Virus record (IMG/VR): IMGVR_UViG_3300015157_000061
Coordinates: 1-12,847 of that record
Source: a virus
Lineage: Duplodnaviria > Heunggongvirae > Uroviricota > Caudoviricetes
Length of the DNA: 12,847 nt
Direction: 5' to 3' (one strand)
The position numbers and the translations under genes were made by a program. How positions within the stretch are numbered: the stretch's first letter is position 1; every line of letters starts with the position of its first letter. Positions 1 through 11,456 of the stretch are shown here, piece by piece. The notes under the pieces were generated by a model. That model saw only the letters and a list, made by a program, of their open reading frames with translations. It searched no databases and had not been told where the DNA came from.

Positions 1-441
1 AAGCGGCGCAATATGCTCACTGGCTACCTGCATCAGGTTGTTTTTTGTTTCTTCAGCCTCCCGGATCCGGAACAGTTTTTCTGCTTCAGTATCCTTCACC
101 CAGGCTGTGCCGTTCCACTTCTGAAACTCCCCTTCCGGCGATAACCAGGTAACATTTTCCGGTAACGGACCGAGTTCAGAAATAAATAACTCGTCCCCTG
201 ACGCTACGTCATAAACCGTTTTCCCCCGATGGTCTTCAACGAGATGCCACGATGCCTCATCACTGTTGAAAACAGCCACAAAGCCAGCAGGAATATCTGG
301 TGGTGCAATATCGGTACTGTTTGCTGGCAGACCTGTATGAGGCGGAATATATGCGTCACCTTCACCAATAAATTCATTAGTTCCGGCCAGCAGATTATAA
401 ATTTTTATGGTCCGTGCTTGTTCACTCATTCTGAATGCCAT
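1..441 (-). CDS. tfa: Tail fiber assembly protein (lambda Tfa-like); N-terminal 147 codons, 3' end runs off the window
   Basis: Minus-strand translation from ATG (439-441) reads [47 protein letters not shown]..., near-identical to the remembered lambda Tfa N-terminus. The start overlaps the stf stop (TAATG). Confidence 0.85.
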
Positions 442-3400
442 TATGCAAGCCTCACAATATAGTTAAATGCGATGTTTTTGACGGTGTTTTCCGCGTTACC
501 CGCAGCGTTAACGGTGATGGTGTGTCCATGTGAACCAATCGCAACGGAGTGCGTATGCGCACCAATACCTACAGTATGTGCATGTGCGCCAGAACTTGCT
601 GCAGTACCAGACAGCGAGTGGGTATGAGCACCTGCTGACTGTGTCTGAATACGTTGATAATACGATCTATAGGAAGAAGTCTCCGGGCTTACTTGATACT
701 GTGAATTCTGGACATAAGTGAACCCACCGCCATCATAAAATGCTAACGCAGAACCGCCGCCTCCTGGCCAACGAATACCATTACCATGAGTATGAACACC
801 GGCAGACCCCGTAGAGCCACTCAGACTGTGCGTATGCGCCCCGGTGTTATTCGTGGATTTAGTGCCGTAATCAAACGACGATGTGGTTTTCGTCCCCAAA
901 TCCGTACTGGATGCGCTGGCGCTGTGGGTGTGCGATTTTATGCCGTCCTGTTCCTGAGACAATACGGCCCGGCCACTAGCGGGTTTGCCCTTGATTGTCC
1001 AGCCGCGCATATCTGGAATAACACCTGAAGGATAGGCAATAGCCAGTTTCGGATATGCTGCCTTATCAAACGTCTGCCCCTGCATGATCGCATAACCTGC
1101 AGGTGGTGTATCTGATGGCCACGGCAGCGGAACACCTAGCGGAAACGCTTCAATATTTGCCGAGCCGTCAAATTTTACGCCGTTAATTGTCCTTGCAGTT
1201 TGCAATTTGGTTGCTGTGCTTGCATTACCCGATAAAGATCCAGTGATACCACCACTCGCGTTTAATTTAGTTGCAATTGTAACATTGCCAGTATGGTTAC
1301 TAATTATAAACGGCCTTAAGCTATTGTGCGTACCAAGACTGTTACCCGAATCTGTCAACATAAAATATGTGTTTGATCCATCATTTCGGATAAAGAATCC
1401 ATAGTTGCCATAGGCAATACGCAGACCATTTGCTGACCTTGAAATAACCTCACCAGCAGCAGTTAAACCACCTGAAAGAGTCCCTCCAGTTAATGCCAAT
1501 GCCCCAATATTTGAAGGGGTCAATGTGATATTTGCACTACCATCAAATGACACACCGTTAATCGTTCTGGCTGCCTGAAGTTTCGTGGCGGTCGCAGCAT
1601 TACCTGTAGTGTTTTGATTACCGGTAGCGTTGACTCCAGGCAAGTTGATATCTGCCGATCCATCAAATGCCACGCCCCCAATCTTACGTGCTGTCTTGAT
1701 CTTGGTCGCAGTATCTGCGTTTCCGGTCAAATTACCAGTAACACTACCACCAACTTTTAGTCCATTACCGATGGACACCAACCCTGATCTTAAGTTTATA
1801 GAGAATGGTCTTAATGAACCGATGTCTCCATTTTCCCCCTCCCCTTCATTAGTCGGAATAAGATGAAGATGATCTTCGGAACGCCTAAAAATAAGGCCAA
1901 AGGCTTGGTTGAATATTCGAAGAGCATTTATCGTGCTGATTTTTAACTGCCCTCCCATTGTGTCGCCAGTTTTTTGAACTGAACTATCTTTAACAGTTTT
2001 AACTGCCTTTGGCGTTGCCGCCAGCTTTTCACTGGTGCTGTTTGTTGCACTGCTGAGCTGTACTATCCCCTTTTTCGTCGTGCTCGCATCCTCCAGCGCC
2101 ACGGCGGATGCAATATCCTCTGCCCGTTTTGCTGCTGTCTCGGCGCGCGTTGCCGCGGATTCAGCAGCAACTTTGCTCTGAGATGCAGCCGTCGCACTGC
2201 CTGCCGCCTCTGATGCTTTCGCTGTTGCTGTCGTGGCACTACCTTTCGCTGCTGACGCTTGTCTGGTCGCCTCATCTTTTGAAGCAGACGCAGATGATGC
2301 CGATGACGCCGCTGAACTGGCTGACGATGCGGCTGCCGCCTTAGAGGAAGCAGCATTGTCTGCTGAAGTCTTTGCATTTGTTTCAGAGGTTTTTGCTGCA
2401 GAAGCAGACCTCGCTGCTGCAGTGGCTTGCTCAGTGGCTTTGCCAGCCTTCGTTGTGGCTGTTGAAGCGGATGATGCGGCGCTTTCTGCCGATTTTCCGG
2501 CGGCGGTGGCACTGGCTGAGGCCTGCCCGGCACTTGTTGACGCGGCACTGGCAGATAATGCAGCCGCTGTTTTTGAACCTGCCGCAGCTGAGGCGCTCTG
2601 TCCCGCTGCTGTTTCAGAAGACTTAGCGTTCGTCTCGGACGTTTTTGCCGCCTTCGCGGAATTTCCTGCCGCCGTTGCCGAGGAAGCTGCACTACTGGCA
2701 CTTGATGATGCATTCGTTTCTGAAGATTTCGCTGCCTCTTTTGAGGCCGCCGCACCCCGTGCCGAGGTGGCAGCTTCTGACGCCTTCGTGGTCGCTGTGG
2801 ATGCAGAAGTGGCTGCCGATTTTTGTGATGCTGCGGCATTCGTTTCTGACGTTTTCGCGGCACTGGCGCTGGTAGCTGCCGCGCTTTTTGATGACTCTGC
2901 AGCAGCAGCACTTTTTGCTGCTTCACGGGTCTTTGTCGATGCCGTTCCTGCGCTGGAAGACGCTGACTGAGCCGACGACGCGGCCTGTCCGGCTGACGTG
3001 CTGGCGGCACGTGCTGAGGCTGCAGCATCGGTTGCATGAGTTGCCGCCTCGCTGGCTGATGCACTGGCATCGCTGGCTGATTTTTTCGCGGCTGCCGTAT
3101 TCTGTGCAACCGCGGAGGCGTTACGTGACACCTCTTCCACCATCTGCTCAAAGCGGCGCAGTGCCTCCGGTCGGACATCATCCTCCGTCATGGCACCGAG
3201 AAAATCATTCAGCGTACCTGATCTGGAACCTTCATAGACGGTAATGGTCCCGGCATGTGAAGGCGGAAAACCTTCAACCAGCAGGGTGACGCTGTACTGG
3301 CCATGCTCAACATCCATGCTGTAACGTCCGGCTTCATCCGGATTTTCAGAGGCCACCGTGTTCACCACCACCGTGCTGCTGGTTCGTCTGGCCTTCAGCA

Positions 3401-3467
3401 CAATGGTGCAGTTCTGTACTGGTTTTCCTGTGCCATCTTTAAGCACGCCAGAAATTTTTACTGTCAT
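441..3467 (-). CDS. stf: Side tail fiber protein, full-length lambda Stf-like (1008 aa)
   Basis: Track ORF. N-terminus [20 protein letters not shown]... and C-terminus ...[40 protein letters not shown] match remembered lambda Stf. RBS GGTGGA lies upstream of the ATG. Contains an Ala/Ser-rich segment, a three-copy repeat block and His-rich GAHTHS motifs. Confidence 0.9.
1146..1721 (-). repeat. Three imperfect copies of a 27-aa tail fiber repeat (GNAxTATKLQxARTINGVxFDGSANI) inside stf
   Basis: Protein repeats [54 protein letters not shown] and [27 protein letters not shown] are visible at DNA level as related blocks near 1150-1220, 1540-1610 and 1650-1730. Confidence 0.75.
2030..3095 (-). repeat. 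In-frame low-complexity Ala/Ser/Thr-rich coding repeat within stf (recurring AAKTSETNA units)
   Basis: Stf residues about 125-480 are almost entirely A/S/T/K/E, with KTSETNA recurring several times. The biased composition leaves long spurious open frames on both strands. Confidence 0.8.
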
Positions 3468-3481
3468 ACTTTTCCACCAAT

Positions 3482-3513
3482 AAAAAAAGCCCGCAGCAGT
3501 GACGCCACGGGCT
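3482..3513 (-). terminator. Possible intrinsic terminator or attenuator between lom and stf
   Basis: On the minus strand AGCCCG (3508-3513) pairs with CGGGCT (3488-3493) around a 14-nt loop, followed by a run of seven T. The loop is long, so the hairpin is weak. Confidence 0.35.
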
Positions 3514-3618
3514 TCAGGACAGTGTAACTTTACGTTTCCTCAAACGCAGTTCACCCCATAAGGTGGATGAACCTGCGTATCATAACAATATTTACAGAAG
3601 ATAAATCGGCGTCTGTTG

Positions 3619-4218
3619 TCAGAAACGGTATCCGATACCAACAATAAATGCATCCGTTCGCCAGTCGCCACTACCGGAACCTTCATAAGCAAGGTCAATG
3701 GTTACGGATTCGGTCGGGTTAAACTGCACGCCAGCCCCCCACGCCAGAGACGTGTTGCTGTGGCGACCGTCATCACTTCCGGTCAGCACATCGTGCGTTT
3801 TCCCCTTGTTGTCAGTTACGCGGAGATAATCCCCGGAGAAAGTCGACACACGGCTGTAAGCCACACCCACCATCGCATACGCGCTGAACCATTCATTCAC
3901 GCGTACAGACGGCCCCGCCATCACGCTGAACCAGCGGTTACGCACGGAATCTTCATGCCAGCGGGTATCGCTGTAGTGCGTTTTTTGCTCATCCTCAGCA
4001 TTGGCATAACTGAAGGACGTAATCAGCCCCAGCGCGTCCGTAAACTCATAACGGTATTTCACGTTAATCCCGTTCAGATTATCGCTGCCGGGAGCGTTCG
4101 TACGGGCATGAAGATACCCCGCGCTCAGTGTGGACTGATGTTCAGACGCCCATGCAGGCGCACCGGATACGGACAGACAGATGGCTGCGGACAAAATGGC
4201 TGCACAAACTTTACGCAT
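3619..4218 (-). CDS. lom: Lom outer membrane protein (Ail/Lom family beta-barrel)
   Basis: 199-aa ORF with signal peptide MRKVCAAILSAAICLSVSGAPAWA and C-terminal ...AYEGSGSGDWRTDAFIVGIGYRF ending in Phe, matching remembered lambda Lom motifs. RBS GAGAGG lies upstream. Confidence 0.9.
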   Translation of the reverse strand: MRKVCAAILSAAICLSVSGAPAWASEHQSTLSAGYLHARTNAPGSDNLNGINVKYRYEFTDALGLITSFSYANAEDEQKTHYSDTRWHEDSVRNRWFSVMAGPSVRVNEWFSAYAMVGVAYSRVSTFSGDYLRVTDNKGKTHDVLTGSDDGRHSNTSLAWGAGVQFNPTESVTIDLAYEGSGSGDWRTDAFIVGIGYRF

Positions 4219-4242
4219 AATTACCTCTCGCTTTTCTGCAAT

Positions 4243-4266
4243 AAAAAAGGCGCCATTTCTGGCGCC
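4243..4266 (-). terminator. Rho-independent terminator-like hairpin downstream of the J fragment, upstream of lom
   Basis: Minus strand reads GGCGCC-AGAAAT-GGCGCC (perfect 6-bp stem, 6-nt loop) followed by TTTTTTATT. Confidence 0.55.
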
Positions 4267-4285
4267 CGTATTGGGGTTATAAAAT

Positions 4286-5972
4286 TCAGCTAATCGTGAT
4301 GCCTGCAGTGGCTTTCTTCATCACAACAACCAGCAAATCGCTGATACTTGCTGTGGGATACCAGCCATTTACCCACCATGCTGATACAGAAAACTCCAGC
4401 GTCATGTGGCCGCGACCAGCAGGCATATCAATAACACCACTGTAAATCAGCGTATTATCCAGCGCGGTACGGTTATAAATTTCAGCACCGTTTTTCCGTA
4501 CTATCAGGCGGCATGACGAATAAGTATCGCTGTTCTCCCGCTCATGTCTGGCACCGCTGAAAGCCACCGCCGGAATAACAATCTGCCGGTTAAACGGCTG
4601 ATCGTCATAAACCCTGACGGTAATGGTTCCTGATGGCCAACGCTCCGGTGCACGGGAGTCACGGGGGAAAGCCTTACCCACTGTTTTAACGAGATCGCCT
4701 TCAATCTGGTTTGCAGACAGTTTCCCTCTGATGACACAGTTCTCGTTAATGGTGACATTATTGAGCGTGCCGGTATTCGCCGTGATGGCTCCACTGATAT
4801 CCGCATTGCGGGCTGTCAGCCTGCCATCCGGCGTCAGGGAAAACGTAGGAGGATTGCCGGATGACGTGATGCTCACCGCAAACAGTCGCTTCAGGAACAC
4901 GTCGTTCATGAACAGCTGATTCCCCTGCGCCACAAACAGCGGCGTGGTGTTGCCGTTCTCCGGGGTAATCATCGCGATACGGTCCGCCTGCAGCAGAATA
5001 CTGCTCAGCGTCTGACCATCAACATCCTCAATCCCCGCGCCAATCCCGGCCACATAGGGAATACCGTTTTTTGTTTTCTGCACCTTCAGCATATACATGG
5101 CATTCAGCTCATTGCGCGTGTCTGACTGAACCCGCTGGATTTGCTGTATGGTCACGGCCTGGTCACCCAGCTTTTTATCCGTGGTCGAGGTAATTTCACT
5201 CCCTTTTTTATCCACGTACTGGCGGACCTGTGCTATCTGTCGGGCGTTTTCTGACTGCCCCTGGCTGACAGTCTGTGAGATTTCACTGCTCACCCGGTCC
5301 ACTTTCTGGCTCACCTGCGCGATGGCCAGTGTCTGGTCCTCATTCTTTTTCGCAACCAGCTGCGTGAGGCTGTTTTCCGCCTTCCCGATTTTCCGGGTCA
5401 CTTCTGCGATATCCGTGTCCATCCGCTGACGGATGTCTTCTTCCAGTTGCGTGACCTCCGTACGCAGCGCTGAAGCATCAATGCGCTCTTTCAGTGCCTG
5501 GCCCAGAAGCGTCTCATCTATCAGCCCCCGGAAAATTTCCAGATACCCTTCACCATCATTGCTGGGCTGCCCGCTGGCTTCCACAAAAGCAGATTTTCCC
5601 ACCAGGTTGACGCTTCGCACGTAAAACCAGAAATCCGTCCCCGGCTTAATCCGGCTCCCATGGACAGTCCACTGACTGCCGGTCCCCAGATAACGGGCAG
5701 ATTTTTCCACCTGTGCTGTGTTCGTGATGCGTTTTTCTGAGAACCAGAATTCAAACTGTACCGTCGGGTCATACACCGCAAGACGCGGGACCGCCGTTAT
5801 CTGAAAATACCCCGGCGTCAGCTCAATGGTGGCGGGTTTTGCAGGTGCGTTAATCCTGAACGTGGTGGTGGCCGGTTCGCCCTGCTGGCCATAACTGTTA
5901 ATCGCCCTGACCGTCAGGGTGTATTCCCCCAGTGGCAGGCCGCTGAAACGGTGCTCCGTGTCTGCGGTGCTG
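4286..5972 (-). pseudogene. J: 5'-truncated tail tip / host specificity protein J; C-terminal part only, including the receptor-binding end
   Basis: The frame reads ...[79 protein letters not shown]... through ...[26 protein letters not shown]..., matching the remembered C-terminal portion of lambda J. An in-frame TGA sits at 5973-5975 and there is no ATG upstream; the track ORF begins at an internal GTG (5776). The N-terminal majority of J is absent. Confidence 0.8.
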
Positions 5973-6462
5973 CCAGTTCTCCGGGCAGGCGTTCACGCCG
6001 GATACGGTCAACATTCTCATCAAACGCCTGTTTCAGTGGGGCCGCCATCGGGATTTTCACCACATCAATAGGGTAACGGTTTTTCCCGGCCACACGCTGC
6101 ATGACATGCCAGCGACCGTTTTTTAATCGCTGAATGAATGCCCGCTGATACCGATGCTGACCGGCTTTAAGTATGCTGTTCGGACGACGGCCCAGCATCC
6201 TGATCCCCAGCTTAATCACTGGAAGATCACCGCGGTTAACGATAATTTTTGCGTTCGGATTTCTGACCGTCGCCCGTTTCAGTCTGGACCGTTCCTTAAC
6301 CAGTTTCCGGCGTACCTTTGTCTCCCGGGCAACCTGTGATGAAGACTGATTAATCGCCGTTGTGGCCACGCGGTTAATCGTCATTGCTGAAGCCGCCGGA
6401 ATGGCGTTTTTACGAACCCGGCTCAGATTATCAATCGCCTGATCAAGCCCTTTTATCGCCAT
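5914..6462 (-). CDS. Z: Tail completion protein Z-like, with the C-terminal ~19 aa replaced by out-of-frame J sequence at a deletion junction
   Basis: [66 protein letters not shown]...[30 protein letters not shown]...RIRRERLP matches remembered lambda gpZ. RBS GGGGGA precedes the ATG at 6460-6462. The tail [19 protein letters not shown] is a different reading frame of J DNA. Confidence 0.7.
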
Positions 6463-6477
6463 AATTTCCCCCTGCGT

Positions 6478-8073
6478 TTATCGTCGCCGGTTAACAGCGG
6501 GTGGTTGCCCACGGTTGTCCGTCCCCACTTCACACAGATAAACGCCCCGCTGATTGCGGGTTTTCGGCATGGTGATCACCGGCTTGCCATAGACAGACGC
6601 GCCTTTTACCGGCAGCACACGGAAAACACCGTGTTTTTTTGACCTCTGGTAGACGATTTCACCATCGATCCCCCCGGTGTCCCAGCAGACACGGGAAATG
6701 GTCATTTCGGTGCCATCCGCATGGCGGTATTTTTTGTTGATCGCCGCATCCACACGTAACAGCGTCTCTTCCTCATCAGGACGCCCCATAATGATGATTT
6801 TATCCACCAGAAAAGCTTCCTCTCCCGGTGCCCATCCCCAGACATACATCTCAAAACGGTTTCGCTGCGAGTCAATGCCCGCCGTCAGATAAACCACCCG
6901 GGCAGGCACCGCCGCCGTGTAACGCACAACCTTATCCATCAGCACCTGGTGATCGAGTTTTTCGCCCACGGCCTCTTCCCAGGTCTCGCCCAGCGTGGTG
7001 TTCACAAAGGTTTTCAGGCCGTTGGGATCTTTCAGTGCATCCAGCCAGTCATAGACTATCTGTACCCAGGTGGTGAACGGACTGTACGCTGTCCAGATAT
7101 GGAACGTGATGGAGCGCGGCGGCGGAATTTCATTATCCGCGGCGCTGAAAAACGTCAGACCGTCACGGGTCCACATCCCCGTGTTTTCACAGATCCACCG
7201 CCCGTTGCTCTGGTCAAGCTCAGACTGATGGATCACGCAGCCATGATGTTCACAGAGGTAGAAAACGCTTTCGGGGCTGTCCTTCTCCCATTTAAGGCCA
7301 AAAGGCGTGGATTCATCGCCAAATTTCAGATACTGCTCCTCCCCACAGTGTGGGCAGGGCACATAAAAACGCATGAAATGCGCCGACTCGTTGGCCGCTT
7401 TTTCGATCTGGCAGGTGCCTTTGATTTTAGGCGTCGAGCCGCGAATGGATTTGGGCCATACAGAGCCCTCAATACGTTTATCCCCAAGCAGGGTTGGCGA
7501 ACCCTCTTTTTCGACATCCGGTTCGAACGAGGAAAGTTCGTCATAGCAGACCACGTCCACGGATTTTTCACGGTAGTTTTTGGCGGCAGCGCCGCCCAGG
7601 CACCAGAAACCCACACCCGATGAAAAGCGTTTCAGCGTGAGGGTATTGTCACGATGTTTACGCCCCAGCCATGGAAAAAGGTCTTTCAGACATGGCACAT
7701 CCCGAATCGTCGCCTCCACGTGAGACTTCATAAAATCTTCAGCGGCAGAATCCGTGGGCTGAAAAAGCAGACTGTTTCGGGATTTATGCTCAATAAAATA
7801 CCCGACCACCCCCAGCAACATCTTTGTATAGCCAACACGGGCAGATTTAATCAGATTAACAGTCCGGATCTGATCATTCCCCATGCTGTTCATGATGGCG
7901 ATCTGGAACGGCAGCGTTTTCCATTCTCCCTCACCATATGAAGATTCTTTAGGCAGATAATAATTTTGATCAGCCCATTCAACTGGCGTCACCGGCAATG
8001 CCCTTATCAGGGGCTGTAATGCTGTTGTGACAGCACTCATCATATTATTCAGTTGTTGCTCTGATATATTCAT
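6478..8073 (-). pseudogene. A: Terminase large subunit (lambda gpA-like), truncated: about 520 N-terminal residues then a 12-aa foreign tail
   Basis: MNISEQQLNN...VEWADQNYYLPKESSYGEGEWKTLPFQIAIMN...KSARVGYTKML...FMRFYVPCPHCGEEQYLKFGD...IWTAYSPFTTWVQIV...KGASVYGKPV...GVYLCEVGTD tracks remembered lambda gpA. It then ends ...NRGQPPAVNRRR* instead of the remaining ~110 aa. The likely true start is the internal Met (8071-8073), which overlaps the nu1 3' end as in lambda; the track ORF starts at 8130. Confidence 0.85.
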
Positions 8074-8554
8074 CGAGTAAATCCGGTAATTTATCCCCCG
8101 CCCGCGCACACTGATTTGCCCCCTTCGCAATAAGGGTTTTCAGATGGTCAAGATGGCGCGGTGTTAAATCAGGAAACTGTCGCTGCATGGATAAAGGGAT
8201 GGAATCAAGCGTACTGGATAACGCCATTGCCAGCTTGCTGAGGGCAAAAATACAGAACCCGGTATCAATAAGTTTTCCTTTTGACACCTCATTTTTTAAC
8301 TGCTGTGTAACAGCCTGTTCTGCTGTCAGTTCCCATCTGGCAATAAGCAATTTCTCCTCATAGTCGTCTTCGCTATCGCCATCAGGCACATCGTTTTTAC
8401 TTCTTCTCAGATACGATATGTAAAAATCGCGCCAGGCATCCAGATCCAGTTGCCCTCGCTTATTCGATATCGGGGCACCCGGCAATTTCTGCAATCTGCG
8501 AAGCTGGCGATCGGTCAGACTTAAATGCCTGGCAACTTCAGTCTGCGTAGCCAC
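8045..8554 (-). CDS. nu1: Terminase small subunit (Nu1-like DNA packaging protein), GTG start
   Basis: 169-aa ORF with an N-terminal HTH-like segment (TQTEVARHLSLTDRQLRRLQ). The C-terminal half (DTGFCIFALSKLAMALSSTLDSIPLSMQRQFPDLTPRHLDHLK...LLDEYI) parallels remembered lambda Nu1. It lies about 185 bp from cosN. Confidence 0.85.
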   Translation of the reverse strand: MATQTEVARHLSLTDRQLRRLQKLPGAPISNKRGQLDLDAWRDFYISYLRRSKNDVPDGDSEDDYEEKLLIARWELTAEQAVTQQLKNEVSKGKLIDTGFCIFALSKLAMALSSTLDSIPLSMQRQFPDLTPRHLDHLKTLIAKGANQCARAGDKLPDLLDEYIRATTE

Positions 8555-8737
8555 TCCTCACCTCGCAAAAACTCTCACTTCACAATCACAACAAAACCGG
8601 TCATGTCCGGCTTACATGTCTATTTTTTGTGCATGTCCGGTTCACAGAAGACCTCTTTTTTTATTTTTCATATAGTTAACTTGAAGAGAAACCGGACATG
8701 GTTCCCGGAAAATTTTCATAAATAGCGAAAACCCGCG
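8555..8737 (-). promoter_or_regulatory. cosB-like terminase-binding region with three copies of a 9-bp element (CATGTCCGG) plus a partial copy
   Basis: CATGTCCGG occurs at 8602-8610 and 8632-8640, and inverted (CCGGACATG) at 8692-8700. ACATGTC at 8614-8620 is a partial copy. AT-rich tracts lie between them. The position between cosN and nu1 equals lambda cosB (R3-I1-R2-R1). Confidence 0.6.
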
Positions 8738-8749
8738 AGGTCGCCGCCC
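8738..8749 (-). other. cosN cohesive-end site (12-nt GGGCGGCGACCT on the minus strand)
   Basis: Minus strand 8760 to 8701 reads AGACCGTTACG-GGGCGGCGACCT-CGCGGGTTTTCGCTATTTATGAAAATTTTCCGG, a near-exact match to the remembered lambda cos junction. Confidence 0.85.
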
Positions 8750-8972
8750 CGTAACGGTCTGGATCACCGGAAAGGACCCGCCAACGACTTTCGCGTGCAG
8801 GCATTAAAAATTTTGCAGTTCCATGCCTAGTTGAAACCTCGATTTCTATAACATCCAATTTTGTAAATTTAGATATAGCTCAACTTTTCCCAATGTTTTC
8901 AAGTGTATAAAAACAATTGGCGTTACGCCATAACACTATACTTAGGATAAGTAAAGATTTTAAGGAGTTTTA

Positions 8973-10040
8973 ATGAGTCAACATCAATATTATCCACAGC
9001 TGAAATGGAAGCCTGCTGAATATGAATCTCTGATGCTTTTAGATCAAACTACGCTCTCTGGTTTTACTCCGATCATTACCATTCCAGACATAGACTGGGA
9101 TTATGAAAACGAATGCTACAAGAAGAGTTTGAGTTCTTACTTATCTGACTTCGGTATTAACCTTGCGGCATCCTGGAAAGCCAATCGTCCTGTTTTGCTG
9201 GATGTTAAATATTTAGATAAACATGGTTCGAGCCGCCATCATCCTCTAGATATGTGTATCCAAGATGCTAGAGTAAATGGTAAGGAAATTATCCCTGTTG
9301 TTTCTCCCGCATATTCAACAAACTATATACATGCTGTTCAACGCAACTTAATCAATGGGCTCGCTATATCTATCACCCCCCAGACATGGCACCAATTCAC
9401 AAGTCTGGTTAACCACTTAAATATTCATCCTAGTTTAATTGATGTAATCATTGATTTTGGAGATATTCAAAACGCAACTGATAGTTTAAAACAACAAGCA
9501 TTAAGCATGGTCAACACATTATCAGGCCAAGCTCCGTGGAGAAACTTGATTTTATCTTCAACCGCATACCCAGCATCACAGGCAGGGATACCGCAACATC
9601 AAGTTCATCATATTCCGCGCCATGAATACGATCTTTGGATGTACGTAGTACAGAATTTTAGCAATGGAAGAACGCCAAGTTTTAGTGATTATCCCACCGC
9701 TAGCTCTACCATTACGAGCGTAGACCCACGCTTCATGTCTCAGTATGTCTCAGTGAGATATTCGAACGATACCTCATGGATCTTTGTAAAAGGTACCGCA
9801 GTTAAAGGAAATGGATGGGGCCAAACTAAAAACTTATGTACTACCCTTGTTAGTTCGCCAGAGTATCAAGTCTTTGGTTCCAAATTTAGTTGGGGGGATG
9901 ATTACATTTACCAAAGATCATTAGGCGCTAACAAATCTGGCGGCTCTAAAGAATGGCGTAAAGTTGCACATACGCACCATATTACGTTAGTCGTGAGACA
10001 GCTTTATTGGTTGGCGCAGACTCAGCCTGCCAAGCCTTAA
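8973..10040 (+). CDS. Hypothetical 355-aa protein in an AT-rich cargo island; possibly Beta-protein / sce7725-like (unverified)
   Basis: Track ORF with a strong RBS (AAGGAG, 5-nt spacer) before ATG 8973, AT-rich composition unlike the flanking phage genes, and no recognisable catalytic motif. The family suggestion rests only on size and the N-terminal YYPQLKWKPAEYESL pattern, from memory. Confidence 0.75.
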   Translation: MSQHQYYPQLKWKPAEYESLMLLDQTTLSGFTPIITIPDIDWDYENECYKKSLSSYLSDFGINLAASWKANRPVLLDVKYLDKHGSSRHHPLDMCIQDARVNGKEIIPVVSPAYSTNYIHAVQRNLINGLAISITPQTWHQFTSLVNHLNIHPSLIDVIIDFGDIQNATDSLKQQALSMVNTLSGQAPWRNLILSSTAYPASQAGIPQHQVHHIPRHEYDLWMYVVQNFSNGRTPSFSDYPTASSTITSVDPRFMSQYVSVRYSNDTSWIFVKGTAVKGNGWGQTKNLCTTLVSSPEYQVFGSKFSWGDDYIYQRSLGANKSGGSKEWRKVAHTHHITLVVRQLYWLAQTQPAKP

Positions 10041-10602
10041 CTTTCCAGCCTACGCGTTTCTTTAAGGCTGTTCTGACTTCAAGCCTGAGATTCGCTATTG
10101 GAATATTTTCCGCAATAATATTCCATAACTCAAATCGGGGCTTGCTTTTGATTCCTTTGGAATAGCCCCATCGTTCAAGTACGTCGATACATTCATCTTT
10201 CCAAAGCAATTGAGCGAGCATCAATGTGTCATGGTTTCGATTAAGCTTTTCTCCACGCATGTGCTTTATAAGAATGGCGCCTTTTGGCCCAACAGAAACC
10301 GTTTTAACGCCCCACCAACCTGGGATTAACTTTAATGCTCCCTCAAGATGTTTCTCAGCTACGACAAGAGTAACCTTGTCCATTACAGAAGAATAATGCT
10401 TGATTTGAAGAGGCAAACGCTCCAAAGAGTCATATTCACTTTTGAGCTCGTACCCGTGTATAACACCATTTATTACAGCAATGTCTGCTCTACTGGCGCC
10501 AAGGGATATGGAAAATTCATCGACCACAAGGCAGTCTGGATCTAAATGCGATTCTTTCAAAAGCTTATGATGCACCGCGAACCTAACATCTTGATCTTTC
10601 AT
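9982..10602 (-). CDS. Hypothetical 206-aa protein with a PD-(D/E)xK nuclease-like motif; possibly sce7726-like (unverified)
   Basis: Track ORF with a strong RBS (AGGGAGTAAGGAG, 5-nt spacer) before ATG 10600-10602. Motif VVDE(29)F...RAD(40)IAVINGVIHGYE(52)LK(54) fits the E / D / ExK restriction-endonuclease-fold signature. Its 3' end overlaps the 355-aa gene by 59 bp, convergently. Confidence 0.75.
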   Translation of the reverse strand: MKDQDVRFAVHHKLLKESHLDPDCLVVDEFSISLGASRADIAVINGVIHGYELKSEYDSLERLPLQIKHYSSVMDKVTLVVAEKHLEGALKLIPGWWGVKTVSVGPKGAILIKHMRGEKLNRNHDTLMLAQLLWKDECIDVLERWGYSKGIKSKPRFELWNIIAENIPIANLRLEVRTALKKRVGWKVKAWQAESAPTNKAVSRLT

Positions 10603-10624
10603 GACTTCTCCTTACTCCCTCCGT

Positions 10625-10665
10625 TATTGAATTATAGCGCACTGCATTTTACTGCATTTGAGAGA
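10625..10665 (-). promoter_or_regulatory. Putative promoter/operator for the 206-aa gene: perfect TATAAT -10 plus tandem direct repeat
   Basis: Minus-strand TATAAT at 10636..10631, about 28 nt upstream of the ATG. Tandem ACTGCATTTT / ACTGCATTTG (10641-10660) occupies the -35 position; no canonical TTGACA. Confidence 0.35.
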
Positions 10666-10952
10666 TTTGACCACTTCAATCACAAAATGCTTATCTGCAG
10701 CAACAAGATTCATAGCCATACGACTATGGTGATTACCTTTTGTCTGGAAAACTGACCATTCCACGAAGATCAGATAGGTCTATAGAATCTTGGTTTGTCA
10801 TAGCGTTCGCCTTACTTTGAGATGAACCTTTGCTGCATAGGAGATCAGCCCGTCAAGGCTCACCAGCACTAACTGACTACTCAAAGGCTCATTCCAAAGG
10901 GTTTGGTTCGACGTGGTTGAGTGCACTGCGGTGCGCGGTGAAATACCTGTAC

Positions 10953-10982
10953 AAAAATGCCCCGCATCTGCGAGGCATTTTC
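10953..10982. terminator. Bidirectional rho-independent terminator-like hairpin downstream of Rz
   Basis: AAAAATGCC-C-CGC-ATCT-GCG-A-GGCATTTTC: GC-rich stem of about 11 bp with one mismatch, flanked by an A-run upstream and a T-run downstream. Confidence 0.55.
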
Positions 10983-11018
10983 CTGAAAGTCACGTATTAA
11001 ATTTCAGTGAAATTAAAA

Positions 11019-11456
11019 TTATTTTAAGCACTGCGTCCTGATGTACTCCTGCAGGTAGTTGACCTGCGCGGTTATCTTGTCGATTCCACTTCGGAGACGG
11101 TAATAATTGAGTTCAGCATCTGCTGTAAGTCTTGGGCTTTCTCCATTGCCCATGCCGCTGGCTCCGGTCGTTGACTTTGCACAGGTAGCGGCGACTTGCA
11201 GGCGCTTACGCCCAGCAGAAACATCAGCACGGAGGCTTTCGATAGTCGCGTTAGCATCAGCAAGCTCCTTTGTATATCTGGCATCGAGTTCTGCTACGTC
11301 ACGTTGACGCTTCTGCATATCAGCGATTGTGGATGTGGCTTTATCGCGCTGCTCTTTGTAGGTTATGGCGTTATCACGGTAATGATTCAGCCCCAGACTA
11401 AGCGCACCACAGGCCACCAGCAGGGCAATGATGACCACGCACAGTACGCGGTTCAT
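11019..11456 (-). CDS. Rz: Rz i-spanin (inner membrane spanin component)
   Basis: 145-aa ORF with an N-terminal TM segment and NHYRDNAITYKEQRDK...RQRDVAELDARYTKELADA...SPRL, closely matching remembered lambda Rz. GGTGG RBS precedes the start. Confidence 0.9.
   Translation of the reverse strand: MNRVLCVVIIALLVACGALSLGLNHYRDNAITYKEQRDKATSTIADMQKRQRDVAELDARYTKELADANATIESLRADVSAGRKRLQVAATCAKSTTGASGMGNGESPRLTADAELNYYRLRSGIDKITAQVNYLQEYIRTQCLK
11072..11257 (-). CDS. Rz1: Rz1 o-spanin lipoprotein, embedded in the +1 frame of Rz
   Basis: Embedded ORF MLTRLSKASVLMFLLGVSAC-KSPLPVQSQRPEPAAW...: signal peptide with lipobox (VSAC) followed by a Pro-rich stretch. The track ORF starts 9 codons upstream; the second Met is taken as the start. 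Confidence 0.7.
   Translation of the reverse strand: MLTRLSKASVLMFLLGVSACKSPLPVQSQRPEPAAWAMEKAQDLQQMLNSIITVSEVESTR

What the first reader, a model, noticed from the sequence alone, without database searches (positions are those of the whole stretch)
9982..10040. Convergent 59-bp overlap of the 3' ends of the two island genes
The two ORFs face each other and their stop-proximal 59 bp overlap, so they cannot share an operon. Each transcript is necessarily antisense to the other's 3' end, which could give mutually exclusive or antisense-controlled expression, for example keeping a toxic nuclease in check.
Basis: seen in the sequence. Interest (0 to 1): 0.5.

Follow-up and report, generated by a model that had tools for sequence, protein, structure and literature searches.

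The report
Tail-to-tail overlap in beta/cII cassette
The 59-bp overlap of two facing genes is real and is the local form of an ancient arrangement kept by this phage-defence-related gene pair across bacteria, but its length here comes from one recent stop-codon mutation and is probably of no consequence.

Summary
Confirmed: ORF 8973-10040 (+) and ORF 9982-10602 (-) converge and share 59 bp; RefSeq annotates them the same way. The + gene is a Beta_protein (PF14350) TIM-barrel protein. The - gene is a Phage_P4_cII / sce7726-family protein with a PD-(D/E)xK nuclease-like fold. Together they form a gop-less, two-gene relative of the P4 gop-beta-cII anti-phage module, carried as a low-GC moron between Rz and cos of a defective lambdoid E. 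coli prophage.

In 236 of 236 homologous loci from many phyla the two genes are convergent. In 212 they overlap, and in all but one of the rest the gap is at most 39 nt. In the window's branch, 76 of 78 overlapping loci share one reading phase. In 66 loci two conserved codons lie exactly 25 nt apart, so the conserved C-termini are encoded opposite each other.

The 59-bp length is lineage-specific. The closest relatives overlap by 11 bp. A single TAG->TGG change, synonymous in beta, adds a 16-residue tail to cII that is predicted to be disordered.

No terminator lies at the junction, so the two mRNAs must be complementary at their 3' ends. Whether that regulates anything is untested. The arrangement is not incidental; the extra 48 bp probably are.

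The parts
8973..10040 (+). beta-family gene (355 aa): TIM-barrel protein, homolog of P4 beta and PD-Lambda-2C
9982..10602 (-). cII-like / sce7726-family gene (206 aa): PD-(D/E)xK nuclease-like N-terminal domain plus a helical C-terminal domain
   Evidence: NCBIfam NF033832 184 bits. PADLOC cll 4e-31. Homologs carry Pfam PF26915 Phage_P4_cII. 27% identity to P4 cII. Invariant D40, E52, K54. AF2 pLDDT 89. Foldseek top hit 3dnx.
9982..10040 (.). 59-bp convergent overlap: beta codons I337-P355 plus stop, opposite cII codons V188-T206 plus stop
   Evidence: junction map.
10030..10032 (-). cII codon W191 (TGG), where the closest relatives have the stop TAG. This single-base stop loss extends the overlap from 11 to 59 bp. 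On the + strand it is a synonymous Ala change in beta (GCT->GCC).
   Evidence: DNA alignment A2 of the window against L003-L006; junction maps.
9985..10029 (-). cII codons 192-206. Together with W191 (10030-10032) they form the 16-residue lineage-specific C-terminal extension, predicted disordered.
   Evidence: Alignment A1 shows relatives ending 'DWKVRV*'. Residues 189-206 have pLDDT below 50.
10045..10047 (-). cII W186 codon, the last strongly conserved residue of the LKxRxxW core
   Evidence: Alignment A1; spacing analysis.
9975..9980 (+). beta H335-H336 codons (conserved NHH motif that begins the terminal segment ITxVVxQLxxL). They lie 64 nt from the W186 codon here, against 25 nt in 66 other loci.
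10631..10636 (-). perfect TATAAT hexamer about 30 nt upstream of the cII ATG, followed by the Shine-Dalgarno-like GGAGGGAGTAAGGAG; candidate cII promoter -10 element
   Evidence: Read directly from the sequence. The consensus scan reports a nearby site at 10673..10646. Not experimentally supported.
10954..10985 (-). strong intrinsic terminator between Rz and the cassette
   Evidence: RNA fold dG -24.1 kcal/mol, z -5.8, hairpin followed by a U-tract.
8918..8930 (-). weak terminator-like hairpin just beyond the beta start. It is the first terminator-like site met by a cII-strand transcript, 1064 nt past the cII stop.
8739..8750 (-). cos cohesive-end sequence GGGCGGCGACCT, which places the cassette in the Rz-cos moron slot
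   Evidence: Read from the sequence. Identity with the lambda cos sequence is from my own knowledge.

Best explanation
What it is. The overlap is the local, recently lengthened form of an ancestral tail-to-tail architecture shared by the whole beta / cII (sce7726, Phage_P4_cII) gene-pair family. The window carries a two-gene, gop-less relative of the P4 gop-beta-cII anti-phage module. It sits as a low-GC moron between Rz and cos of a defective lambdoid prophage.

Shown. The two genes always face each other with essentially no spacer. In the window's branch their conserved C-terminal segments are encoded on opposite strands of the same DNA, in one fixed phase. In the window's clade a 39-nt in-frame expansion pulled the conserved cores apart, leaving an 11-bp overlap of tails. 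In the E. coli allele one TAG->TGG substitution, silent in beta, then removed the cII stop and added 16 residues predicted to be disordered, giving 59 bp.

Inferred. Each gene has its own outward-lying promoter. No intrinsic terminator lies at the junction. Both mRNAs must therefore read into the partner gene and be complementary over at least 59 nt. The most likely consequence is reciprocal dampening, through RNA polymerase collision and/or RNase III cleavage of the 3' duplex, which would tie the beta:cII expression ratio together. The extra 48 nt in E. coli are probably neutral.
For: Identity of the genes.

Known system: gop-beta-cII protects against lambda and P1 (PMC9122126). PD-Lambda-2C, a beta homolog, is required for defence (PMC9519451).

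Family-wide architecture: 81/81 genome loci convergent with 78 overlapping by 11-158 nt, and 49 of 52 clusters at 70% identity overlapping. 88/88 viral-contig loci convergent with 84 overlapping. 67/67 loci of the distant P4-type branch convergent, with junctions from -27 to +97 nt apart from one interrupted locus, and a modal 4-nt overlap.

Geometry: the same phase in 76 of 78 loci and exactly 25 nt between the cII W codon and the beta HH codon in 66 loci. Nucleotide entropy switches from the cII frame to the beta frame at the W codon.

Stop loss. Disordered tail.

No terminator at the junction here, and no enrichment of terminators after either stop in 71 dereplicated loci.

Baseline: long convergent overlaps are usually stop-loss extensions or are conserved only among close species (PMC2478687).
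Against: There are no transcript or expression data for either gene, so promoters, transcript ends and any antisense effect are inferences. Overlap length varies from 4 to 158 nt. P4 and a few other lineages have a short gap, and P4's gap holds a terminator, so a coding overlap is not indispensable. The fixed phase and the 25-nt spacing follow from purifying selection on the two proteins alone and do not by themselves show a regulatory role. Rho-dependent termination just past each stop cannot be excluded. The E. coli allele is at least 99% identical in all 127 genomes, so selection on the 59-bp state cannot be measured.
Confidence: 0.5

Rival explanations
1. Frozen accident with no regulatory role. 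The ancestor of the cassette lost its intergenic spacer through compaction of a mobile two-gene module. Because both C-terminal segments are needed, the overlap can only be undone by rare in-frame expansions, so it persists passively. Transcript complementarity is tolerated but does nothing.
For: The fixed phase and 25-nt spacing are what purifying selection on two proteins would produce. The overlap has been loosened or lost several times without loss of the pair: the window clade at 64 nt, L053, L065, L007, L010 and P4. Lengths vary widely. The 59-bp state arose from one substitution that is silent in beta.
Against: In the distant P4-type branch the termini are not homologous and the phase varies, yet all but one of 67 junctions still lie within -27 to +97 nt. 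Abutment is therefore kept even where dual coding does not lock it. Convergent orientation is kept in 236/236 loci, although convergent neighbours have no operon constraint holding them together.
Confidence: 0.33
2. One reading: the 59-bp overlap is itself an adaptation that provides antisense control to keep a toxic nuclease in check.
For: cII has a nuclease-like fold and motif. Transcripts must be complementary over the overlap (logic). Type I toxin-antitoxin pairs such as txpA/RatA use 3' overlaps (my knowledge).
Against: The 59-bp length is specific to one clonal E. coli allele. Sister genera have 11 bp. The added residues are predicted disordered. No toxicity of cII is documented; the known toxin of the P4 system is Gop, which is absent here.
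Confidence: 0.07
3. Linkage device. The overlap is selected because it makes the two genes inseparable by deletion or recombination, ensuring co-transfer of an interdependent pair (effector plus regulator or sensor) in mobile elements.
For: The pair is found in prophages, P4-like satellites and other islands across phyla and is nearly always intact. Overlap or abutment is universal.
Against: A few tens of nt add little to linkage between adjacent genes. Loci with cII but no beta exist (L009 and L130). There is no direct test.
Confidence: 0.08
4. Annotation artefact: one of the ORFs is not a gene, or its true end lies before the overlap.
For: Many long overlaps in databases are artefacts (PMC2478687).
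Against: Both ORFs have strong family matches and confident structure models. 3' ends are fixed by stop codons. Beta residues 337-350, inside the overlap, belong to a conserved, high-confidence helix.
Confidence: 0.02

Closest known systems
P4 gop-beta-cII anti-phage system (Rst_gop_beta_cll; Ghisotti 1990; Rousset 2022, PMC9122126)
   Same: Homologous beta (PF14350) and cII (PF26915 / NF033832) genes in the same convergent order. Carried next to cos of a mobile element. PADLOC beta and cll models hit.
   Different: There is no gop gene. Identity is only 22% (beta) and 27% (cII). P4 cII is 264 aa with a different C-terminus. P4 has a 27-nt gap with a terminator hairpin instead of an overlap. 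Defence activity of the two-gene form is untested.
Two-gene beta / sce7726-family cassettes in bacterial genomes and P4-like satellites (named by NCBI PGAP; uncharacterised)
   Same: The same two families, no gop, and the same tail-to-tail phase. Closest examples are L003-L006 at 77-85% identity.
   Different: The majority have 25-nt core spacing and a 35-56-nt overlap of conserved ends. The window's clade has 64-nt spacing and the E. coli allele has an extra stop-loss tail.
PD-Lambda-2 (Vassallo 2022, PMC9519451)
   Same: Its third component is a beta homolog required for defence. The window's beta scores best against the PD-Lambda-2_C models (4e-32).
   Different: PD-Lambda-2 pairs beta with a HigB-like protein and an Xre-peptidase fusion, not with cII. 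No such genes are present here.
Type I toxin-antitoxin loci with convergent 3'-overlapping transcripts (B. subtilis txpA/RatA, bsrG/SR4) and convergent restriction-modification gene pairs
   Same: Convergent transcription with complementary 3' ends, a possible working analogy for reciprocal control (my knowledge).
   Different: In those systems one partner is a non-coding RNA, or the genes are separated by a spacer. Here both strands encode conserved proteins, and no regulation has been shown.
Convergent overlapping gene pairs in prokaryotes (Rogozin 2002; Palleja 2008, PMC2478687)
   Same: A 3' overlap created or lengthened by stop-codon loss; this case fits Palleja's category iii for the extra 48 nt.
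   Different: The underlying overlap is conserved across phyla, whereas the long convergent overlaps judged real in that survey were mostly conserved only in very close species.

Membership tests
gop-beta-cII (Rst_gop_beta_cll) defence system | Gop toxin gene upstream of and co-transcribed with beta | tested here: not met
   tblastn with P4 Gop finds nothing in the window or in L003-L082. The PADLOC gop model hits P4 Gop at 5e-70 but none of the island's small ORFs. No co-directional ORF lies between cos and beta.
gop-beta-cII (Rst_gop_beta_cll) defence system | beta homolog (Pfam PF14350 / PADLOC beta) | tested here: met
   PF14350 E 8e-56; PADLOC beta 3.5e-10.
gop-beta-cII (Rst_gop_beta_cll) defence system | cII homolog (PADLOC cll / PF26915) | tested here: met
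   PADLOC cll 4.3e-31; NF033832 at 184 bits. P4 cII hits the same NCBIfam model.
gop-beta-cII (Rst_gop_beta_cll) defence system | protection against phages (lambda, P1), abortive-infection-like toxicity | not testable with these tools
   Requires cloning and plaque assays.
beta / sce7726 (Phage_P4_cII) two-gene cassette | sce7726-family protein above the curated cutoff | tested here: met
   184.1 bits against a cutoff of 70.
beta / sce7726 (Phage_P4_cII) two-gene cassette | adjacent beta-family partner in convergent orientation with abutting or overlapping stops | tested here: met
   Window overlap 59 nt. 236/236 homologous loci are convergent.
beta / sce7726 (Phage_P4_cII) two-gene cassette | partner matches an NCBIfam 'sce7725' model | tested here: inconclusive
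   No NCBIfam model hits the window's beta or any of five beta proteins from other lineages, P4 included, so the library does not discriminate.
PD-(D/E)xK nuclease superfamily (for the cII-like protein) | restriction-endonuclease-like fold with a D...(D/E)xK motif | tested here: met
   D40, E52 and K54 are invariant in 32 homologs and lie on consecutive strands of the model. Foldseek finds 3dnx at 4.5e-4, then splicing endonucleases and Cdn1. Catalysis is not tested.
PD-Lambda-2 | HigB-like toxin and Xre-peptidase genes next to the beta-like gene | tested here: not met
   Only beta and cII lie between cos and Rz. The system composition is described.
Type I toxin-antitoxin with a 3'-overlapping antisense RNA | small toxic peptide gene opposed by a non-coding antitoxin RNA | tested here: not met
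   Both partners are conserved proteins, 355 and 206 aa. No Rfam family matches in 8400-11200.

The most novel reading that the evidence does not exclude
The tail-to-tail architecture, with no spacer and no junction terminator, kept in 236/236 loci across phyla and even where the termini are not homologous, is a selected regulatory design. Under this reading beta and cII mRNAs form an obligate 3' duplex and their polymerases collide, so the cassette behaves as a transcription-coupled ratio controller or toggle between a TIM-barrel sensor/regulator and a PD-(D/E)xK effector. In prophages, where cII always follows the lysis genes co-directionally, antiterminated late transcription would raise cII and silence beta, switching the module on at induction.
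Probability: 0.2. Interest if true: 0.7.

Novelty: new member of a known kind. Interest (0 to 1): 0.42.

Why it matters
The gop-beta-cII module is a validated but mechanistically obscure anti-phage system, and its two-gene core is spread across bacterial phyla. This work shows that the core pair is always convergent, nearly always overlapping, and in one large branch encodes both conserved C-termini on the same DNA. That gives a concrete, testable handle on how the two proteins' levels may be coupled. It also provides an unusually deep example of a conserved antiparallel gene overlap; surveys found such overlaps mostly restricted to close relatives. Finally, it warns against reading function into the particular 59-bp length seen in E. 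coli.

Tried and rejected
- Intrinsic terminators in or near the overlap: none found.
- Stable RNA structure: folds of the overlap on both strands are not more stable than shuffles (z -0.25 and +1.67). A more stable stretch at 10030-10170 (+), z -2.8, has no U-tract.
- Terminator enrichment after the stops across 71 loci: none.
- Duplication as the origin of the 39-nt expansion in the window's clade: no direct repeats at the junction, only an 8-nt inverted repeat, AGCCTTAA / TTAAGGCT.
- Rfam scan of 8400-11200: nothing.
- Gop in the island: absent.
- Sequence search of solved structures with the cII profile: nothing significant.
- NCBIfam 'sce7725' test: uninformative.
- Ghisotti 1990 transcript mapping for P4: the paper is not held, so only the GenBank terminator annotation could be used.
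- Within-E. coli variation to test selection on the 59-bp state: all 127 copies are at least 99% identical.
- Literature searches for sce7726, sce7725, PF14350 and gop-beta-cll: no description of the overlap architecture.

Full report
**Observation.** The mechanical ORF list gives 8973..10040 (+, 355 aa) and 9982..10602 (-, 206 aa). The sequence shows TAA at 10038-10040 and TTA, the reverse complement of TAA, at 9982-9984. The two reading frames therefore share exactly 9982-10040, 59 bp, tail to tail. NCBI's annotation of the identical DNA in E. coli strain 582 calls the same two genes with the same overlap. 3' ends are fixed by stop codons, so the overlap does not depend on start-codon choice.

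**What the genes are.**
- The + gene is a Beta_protein (PF14350, E 8e-56). It scores best against the PADLOC PD-Lambda-2_C models and also hits 'beta'.
- The - gene is an sce7726-family protein (NF033832, 184 bits against a cutoff of 70). It hits PADLOC 'cll', and its homologs carry Pfam PF26915 Phage_P4_cII.
- 'beta' and 'cll' are components of the P4 satellite's gop-beta-cII locus. That locus protects E. coli against lambda and P1 (PMC9122126) and is triggered by a phage accessory gene (bioRxiv 2023.04.06.535777). The beta-like PD-Lambda-2C is required for defence in another system (PMC9519451).
- The window's proteins are distant from P4's: 22% and 27% identity.
- There is no gop. tblastn finds none, and the PADLOC gop model hits P4 Gop at 5e-70 but none of the island's small ORFs.
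- Structure predictions are confident. Beta (pLDDT 92) is a TIM-barrel-like protein ending in a long helix, 325-350, with only generic TIM-barrel neighbours. The cII-like protein (pLDDT 89) has a restriction-endonuclease-like N-terminal domain. Its best match is the MmcB-like protein 3dnx, followed by splicing endonucleases and Cdn1. D40, E52 and K54 are invariant in 32 homologs.

**Context.**
- GC falls to 0.38-0.44 across 8500-11000, against 0.50-0.57 in the flanks.
- The lambda-type cos sequence lies at 8739-8750, terS at 8045-8554, and Rz at 11019-11456. The cassette therefore occupies the Rz-cos moron slot. The cII-like gene runs co-directionally with the late genes and beta runs against them.
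- A strong - strand terminator (dG -24, z -5.8) separates Rz from the cassette.
- The prophage is a deleted remnant.
- The cassette is present in 127 of 5,426 complete E. coli genomes, all at least 99% identical.

**Is the overlap conserved?** I fetched homologous loci and, for each, located both genes with profiles built from the loci themselves, then measured the distance between the stops.
- 80 species-level genome loci, plus the window, L001 and P4; 81 of these carry both genes: 81/81 are convergent and 78 overlap by 11-158 nt. The exceptions are P4 (+27 nt gap), L007 (+14) and L010 (+39). After dereplication by cII identity, 49 of 52 clusters at 70% identity overlap.
- 88 viral-contig loci with both genes: all are convergent and 84 overlap.
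- 67 metagenome loci of the distant, long-cII, mostly gop-containing P4-type branch with both genes: all are convergent. Junctions run from -27 to +97 nt, with one interrupted locus, and the modal overlap is the 4-nt YTAR type. 50 overlap.
- Overall: 236/236 convergent, 212 overlapping, none co-directional.

For scale, convergent overlaps are about 7% of prokaryotic gene overlaps. [quoted passage not shown]

**Geometry.**
- In the window's branch, 76 of 78 overlapping loci share one relative reading phase: beta codon position 3 lies opposite cII position 2.
- In 66 loci from Proteobacteria, Firmicutes, Planctomycetes, Acidobacteria, candidate-phyla bacteria and others, the cII W codon of LKxRxxW and the second His codon of beta's NHHITKVVxQLAxLxG lie exactly 25 nt apart. 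Beta needs 12-14 more codons after HH, so its last residues are encoded opposite cII's LKxRxxW, and cII's last 3-7 residues are encoded opposite beta's terminal helix (maps).
- Per-site entropy across 57 dereplicated loci shows the constraint changing owner at the W codon. Upstream of W the cII frame dominates (position 3 most variable, 1.93 bits). Between W and HH the beta frame dominates (beta position 2 at 0.64 bits, position 3 at 1.64 bits).
- The fixed phase and spacing therefore reflect a single ancient overlap that has never been opened by an out-of-frame indel.

**Why 59 bp here.**
- The window's clade (window, L001, L003-L006 and related phage contigs) has 64 nt, not 25, between the two landmark codons. 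This is a 39-nt in-frame expansion that separates the conserved cores. I found no repeat that would mark it as a recent duplication.
- In Edwardsiella, Klebsiella, Pantoea and Pectobacterium the cII gene ends 'WK(V/L)R(A/V)-TAG', giving an 11-bp overlap of tails.
- The E. coli allele has TGG at that codon (10030-10032) and reads 16 more codons to TAA at 9982-9984. On the other strand the change is Ala GCT->GCC, which is silent in beta.
- The added residues (189-206) have pLDDT below 50. Beta's share of the overlap (337-350) is part of a conserved, high-confidence helix.
- Other close relatives show different read-through tails (P0002, P0017 and P0021). The tail length drifts.

**Transcription signals.**
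- No intrinsic terminator lies in or near the overlap.
- Folds of the overlap are no more stable than shuffled controls.
- The first terminator-like sites met by either transcript lie beyond the partner gene.
- Across 71 dereplicated loci there is no enrichment of terminators after either stop.
- P4, which has a 27-nt gap, carries a hairpin plus U-tract for the cII strand in that gap.
- A perfect TATAAT followed by a strong Shine-Dalgarno sequence precedes cII. The beta promoter is not obvious.
- No Rfam family matches.

**Interpretation.**
- Shown: the overlap is real, and the convergent, spacer-less arrangement is a family-wide, ancient trait.
- Shown by comparison: the 59-bp length is a one-mutation, lineage-specific extension.
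- Inferred from structure prediction and from drift among relatives: that extension is probably neutral.
- Logically necessary: if both proteins are made, their mRNAs are complementary over at least the overlap.
- Inferred, about even odds: this complementarity and head-on transcription reciprocally dampen the two genes and couple their ratio.
- Main rival: the architecture is a frozen consequence of compaction and dual coding with no regulatory role. The occasional loosening of the overlap favours this rival. Against it, abutment persists in the P4-type branch even though phase and termini are not conserved there.
- In prophages with recognisable lysis genes, the cII-like gene always follows them co-directionally. 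This suggests, speculatively, that antiterminated late transcription would raise cII and oppose beta.

**Novelty.** The genes and the P4 system are known, and RefSeq already shows the overlap. I found no paper describing the conserved tail-to-tail, co-encoding architecture. I rate the finding as a new, well-documented member of a known kind: a conserved convergent gene overlap inside a known defence-related cassette. Interest is moderate.

Noticed in passing
window 1-8130; L252 (NZ_CP069093.1): The prophage is a deleted remnant. terL is truncated (ORF 6478..8130; RefSeq marks terL, gpU and an NlpC/P60 gene as partial), the head genes are missing, and terL is joined to tail genes (J, lom, tail fibre). 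The window also lacks about 3.4 kb that are present in strain TOE17.
   Followed up: partly
window 8739-8750 (-): Lambda-type cohesive-end sequence GGGCGGCGACCT. It places the cassette at the extreme right end of the phage map, in the slot where lambda carries bor.
   Followed up: partly
window 11072-11284 (-) within 11019-11456 (-): An Rz1-like lipoprotein ORF (lipobox LLGVSAC) nested out of frame inside Rz, the classic embedded spanin pair. Some RefSeq records annotate it as an Rz1 family lipoprotein.
   Followed up: no
window 10954-10985 (-): A very stable hairpin followed by a U-tract (dG -24 kcal/mol, z -5.8) just after Rz. It insulates the cassette from upstream transcription unless RNA polymerase is antiterminated.
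   Followed up: partly
L009 and L130 (Xenorhabdus): A cII-like gene directly after an Rz homolog, but with no detectable beta gene downstream: a degenerate or solo-cII locus.
   Followed up: partly
L172-L251 (P4-type branch): Beta ends in an acidic tail (for example DDEEDxDDLI) and cII ends in a basic tail (for example VLKRKxx). Where these overlap they are encoded opposite each other. The opposite charges could point to an interaction between the two termini.
   Followed up: no
H19 (NZ_CM129638.1), H36 (NZ_CM128593.1): IS1 and IS5 insertions interrupt the cassette in some E. coli genomes. These are natural knock-outs that could be compared phenotypically.
   Followed up: no
L083-L088: P4-like satellites (P4-type primase, AlpA) carry the two-gene beta/cII form with a 44-nt overlap and no gop at their hotspot. 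Gop is therefore not a constant partner even within P4-like elements.
   Followed up: partly
window 10033-10040 and 10062-10069: A perfect 8-nt inverted repeat, AGCCTTAA / TTAAGGCT, links the present beta stop region with the cII Ala-Leu-Lys codons, where beta's stop lies in most other family members. Significance unknown.
   Followed up: no
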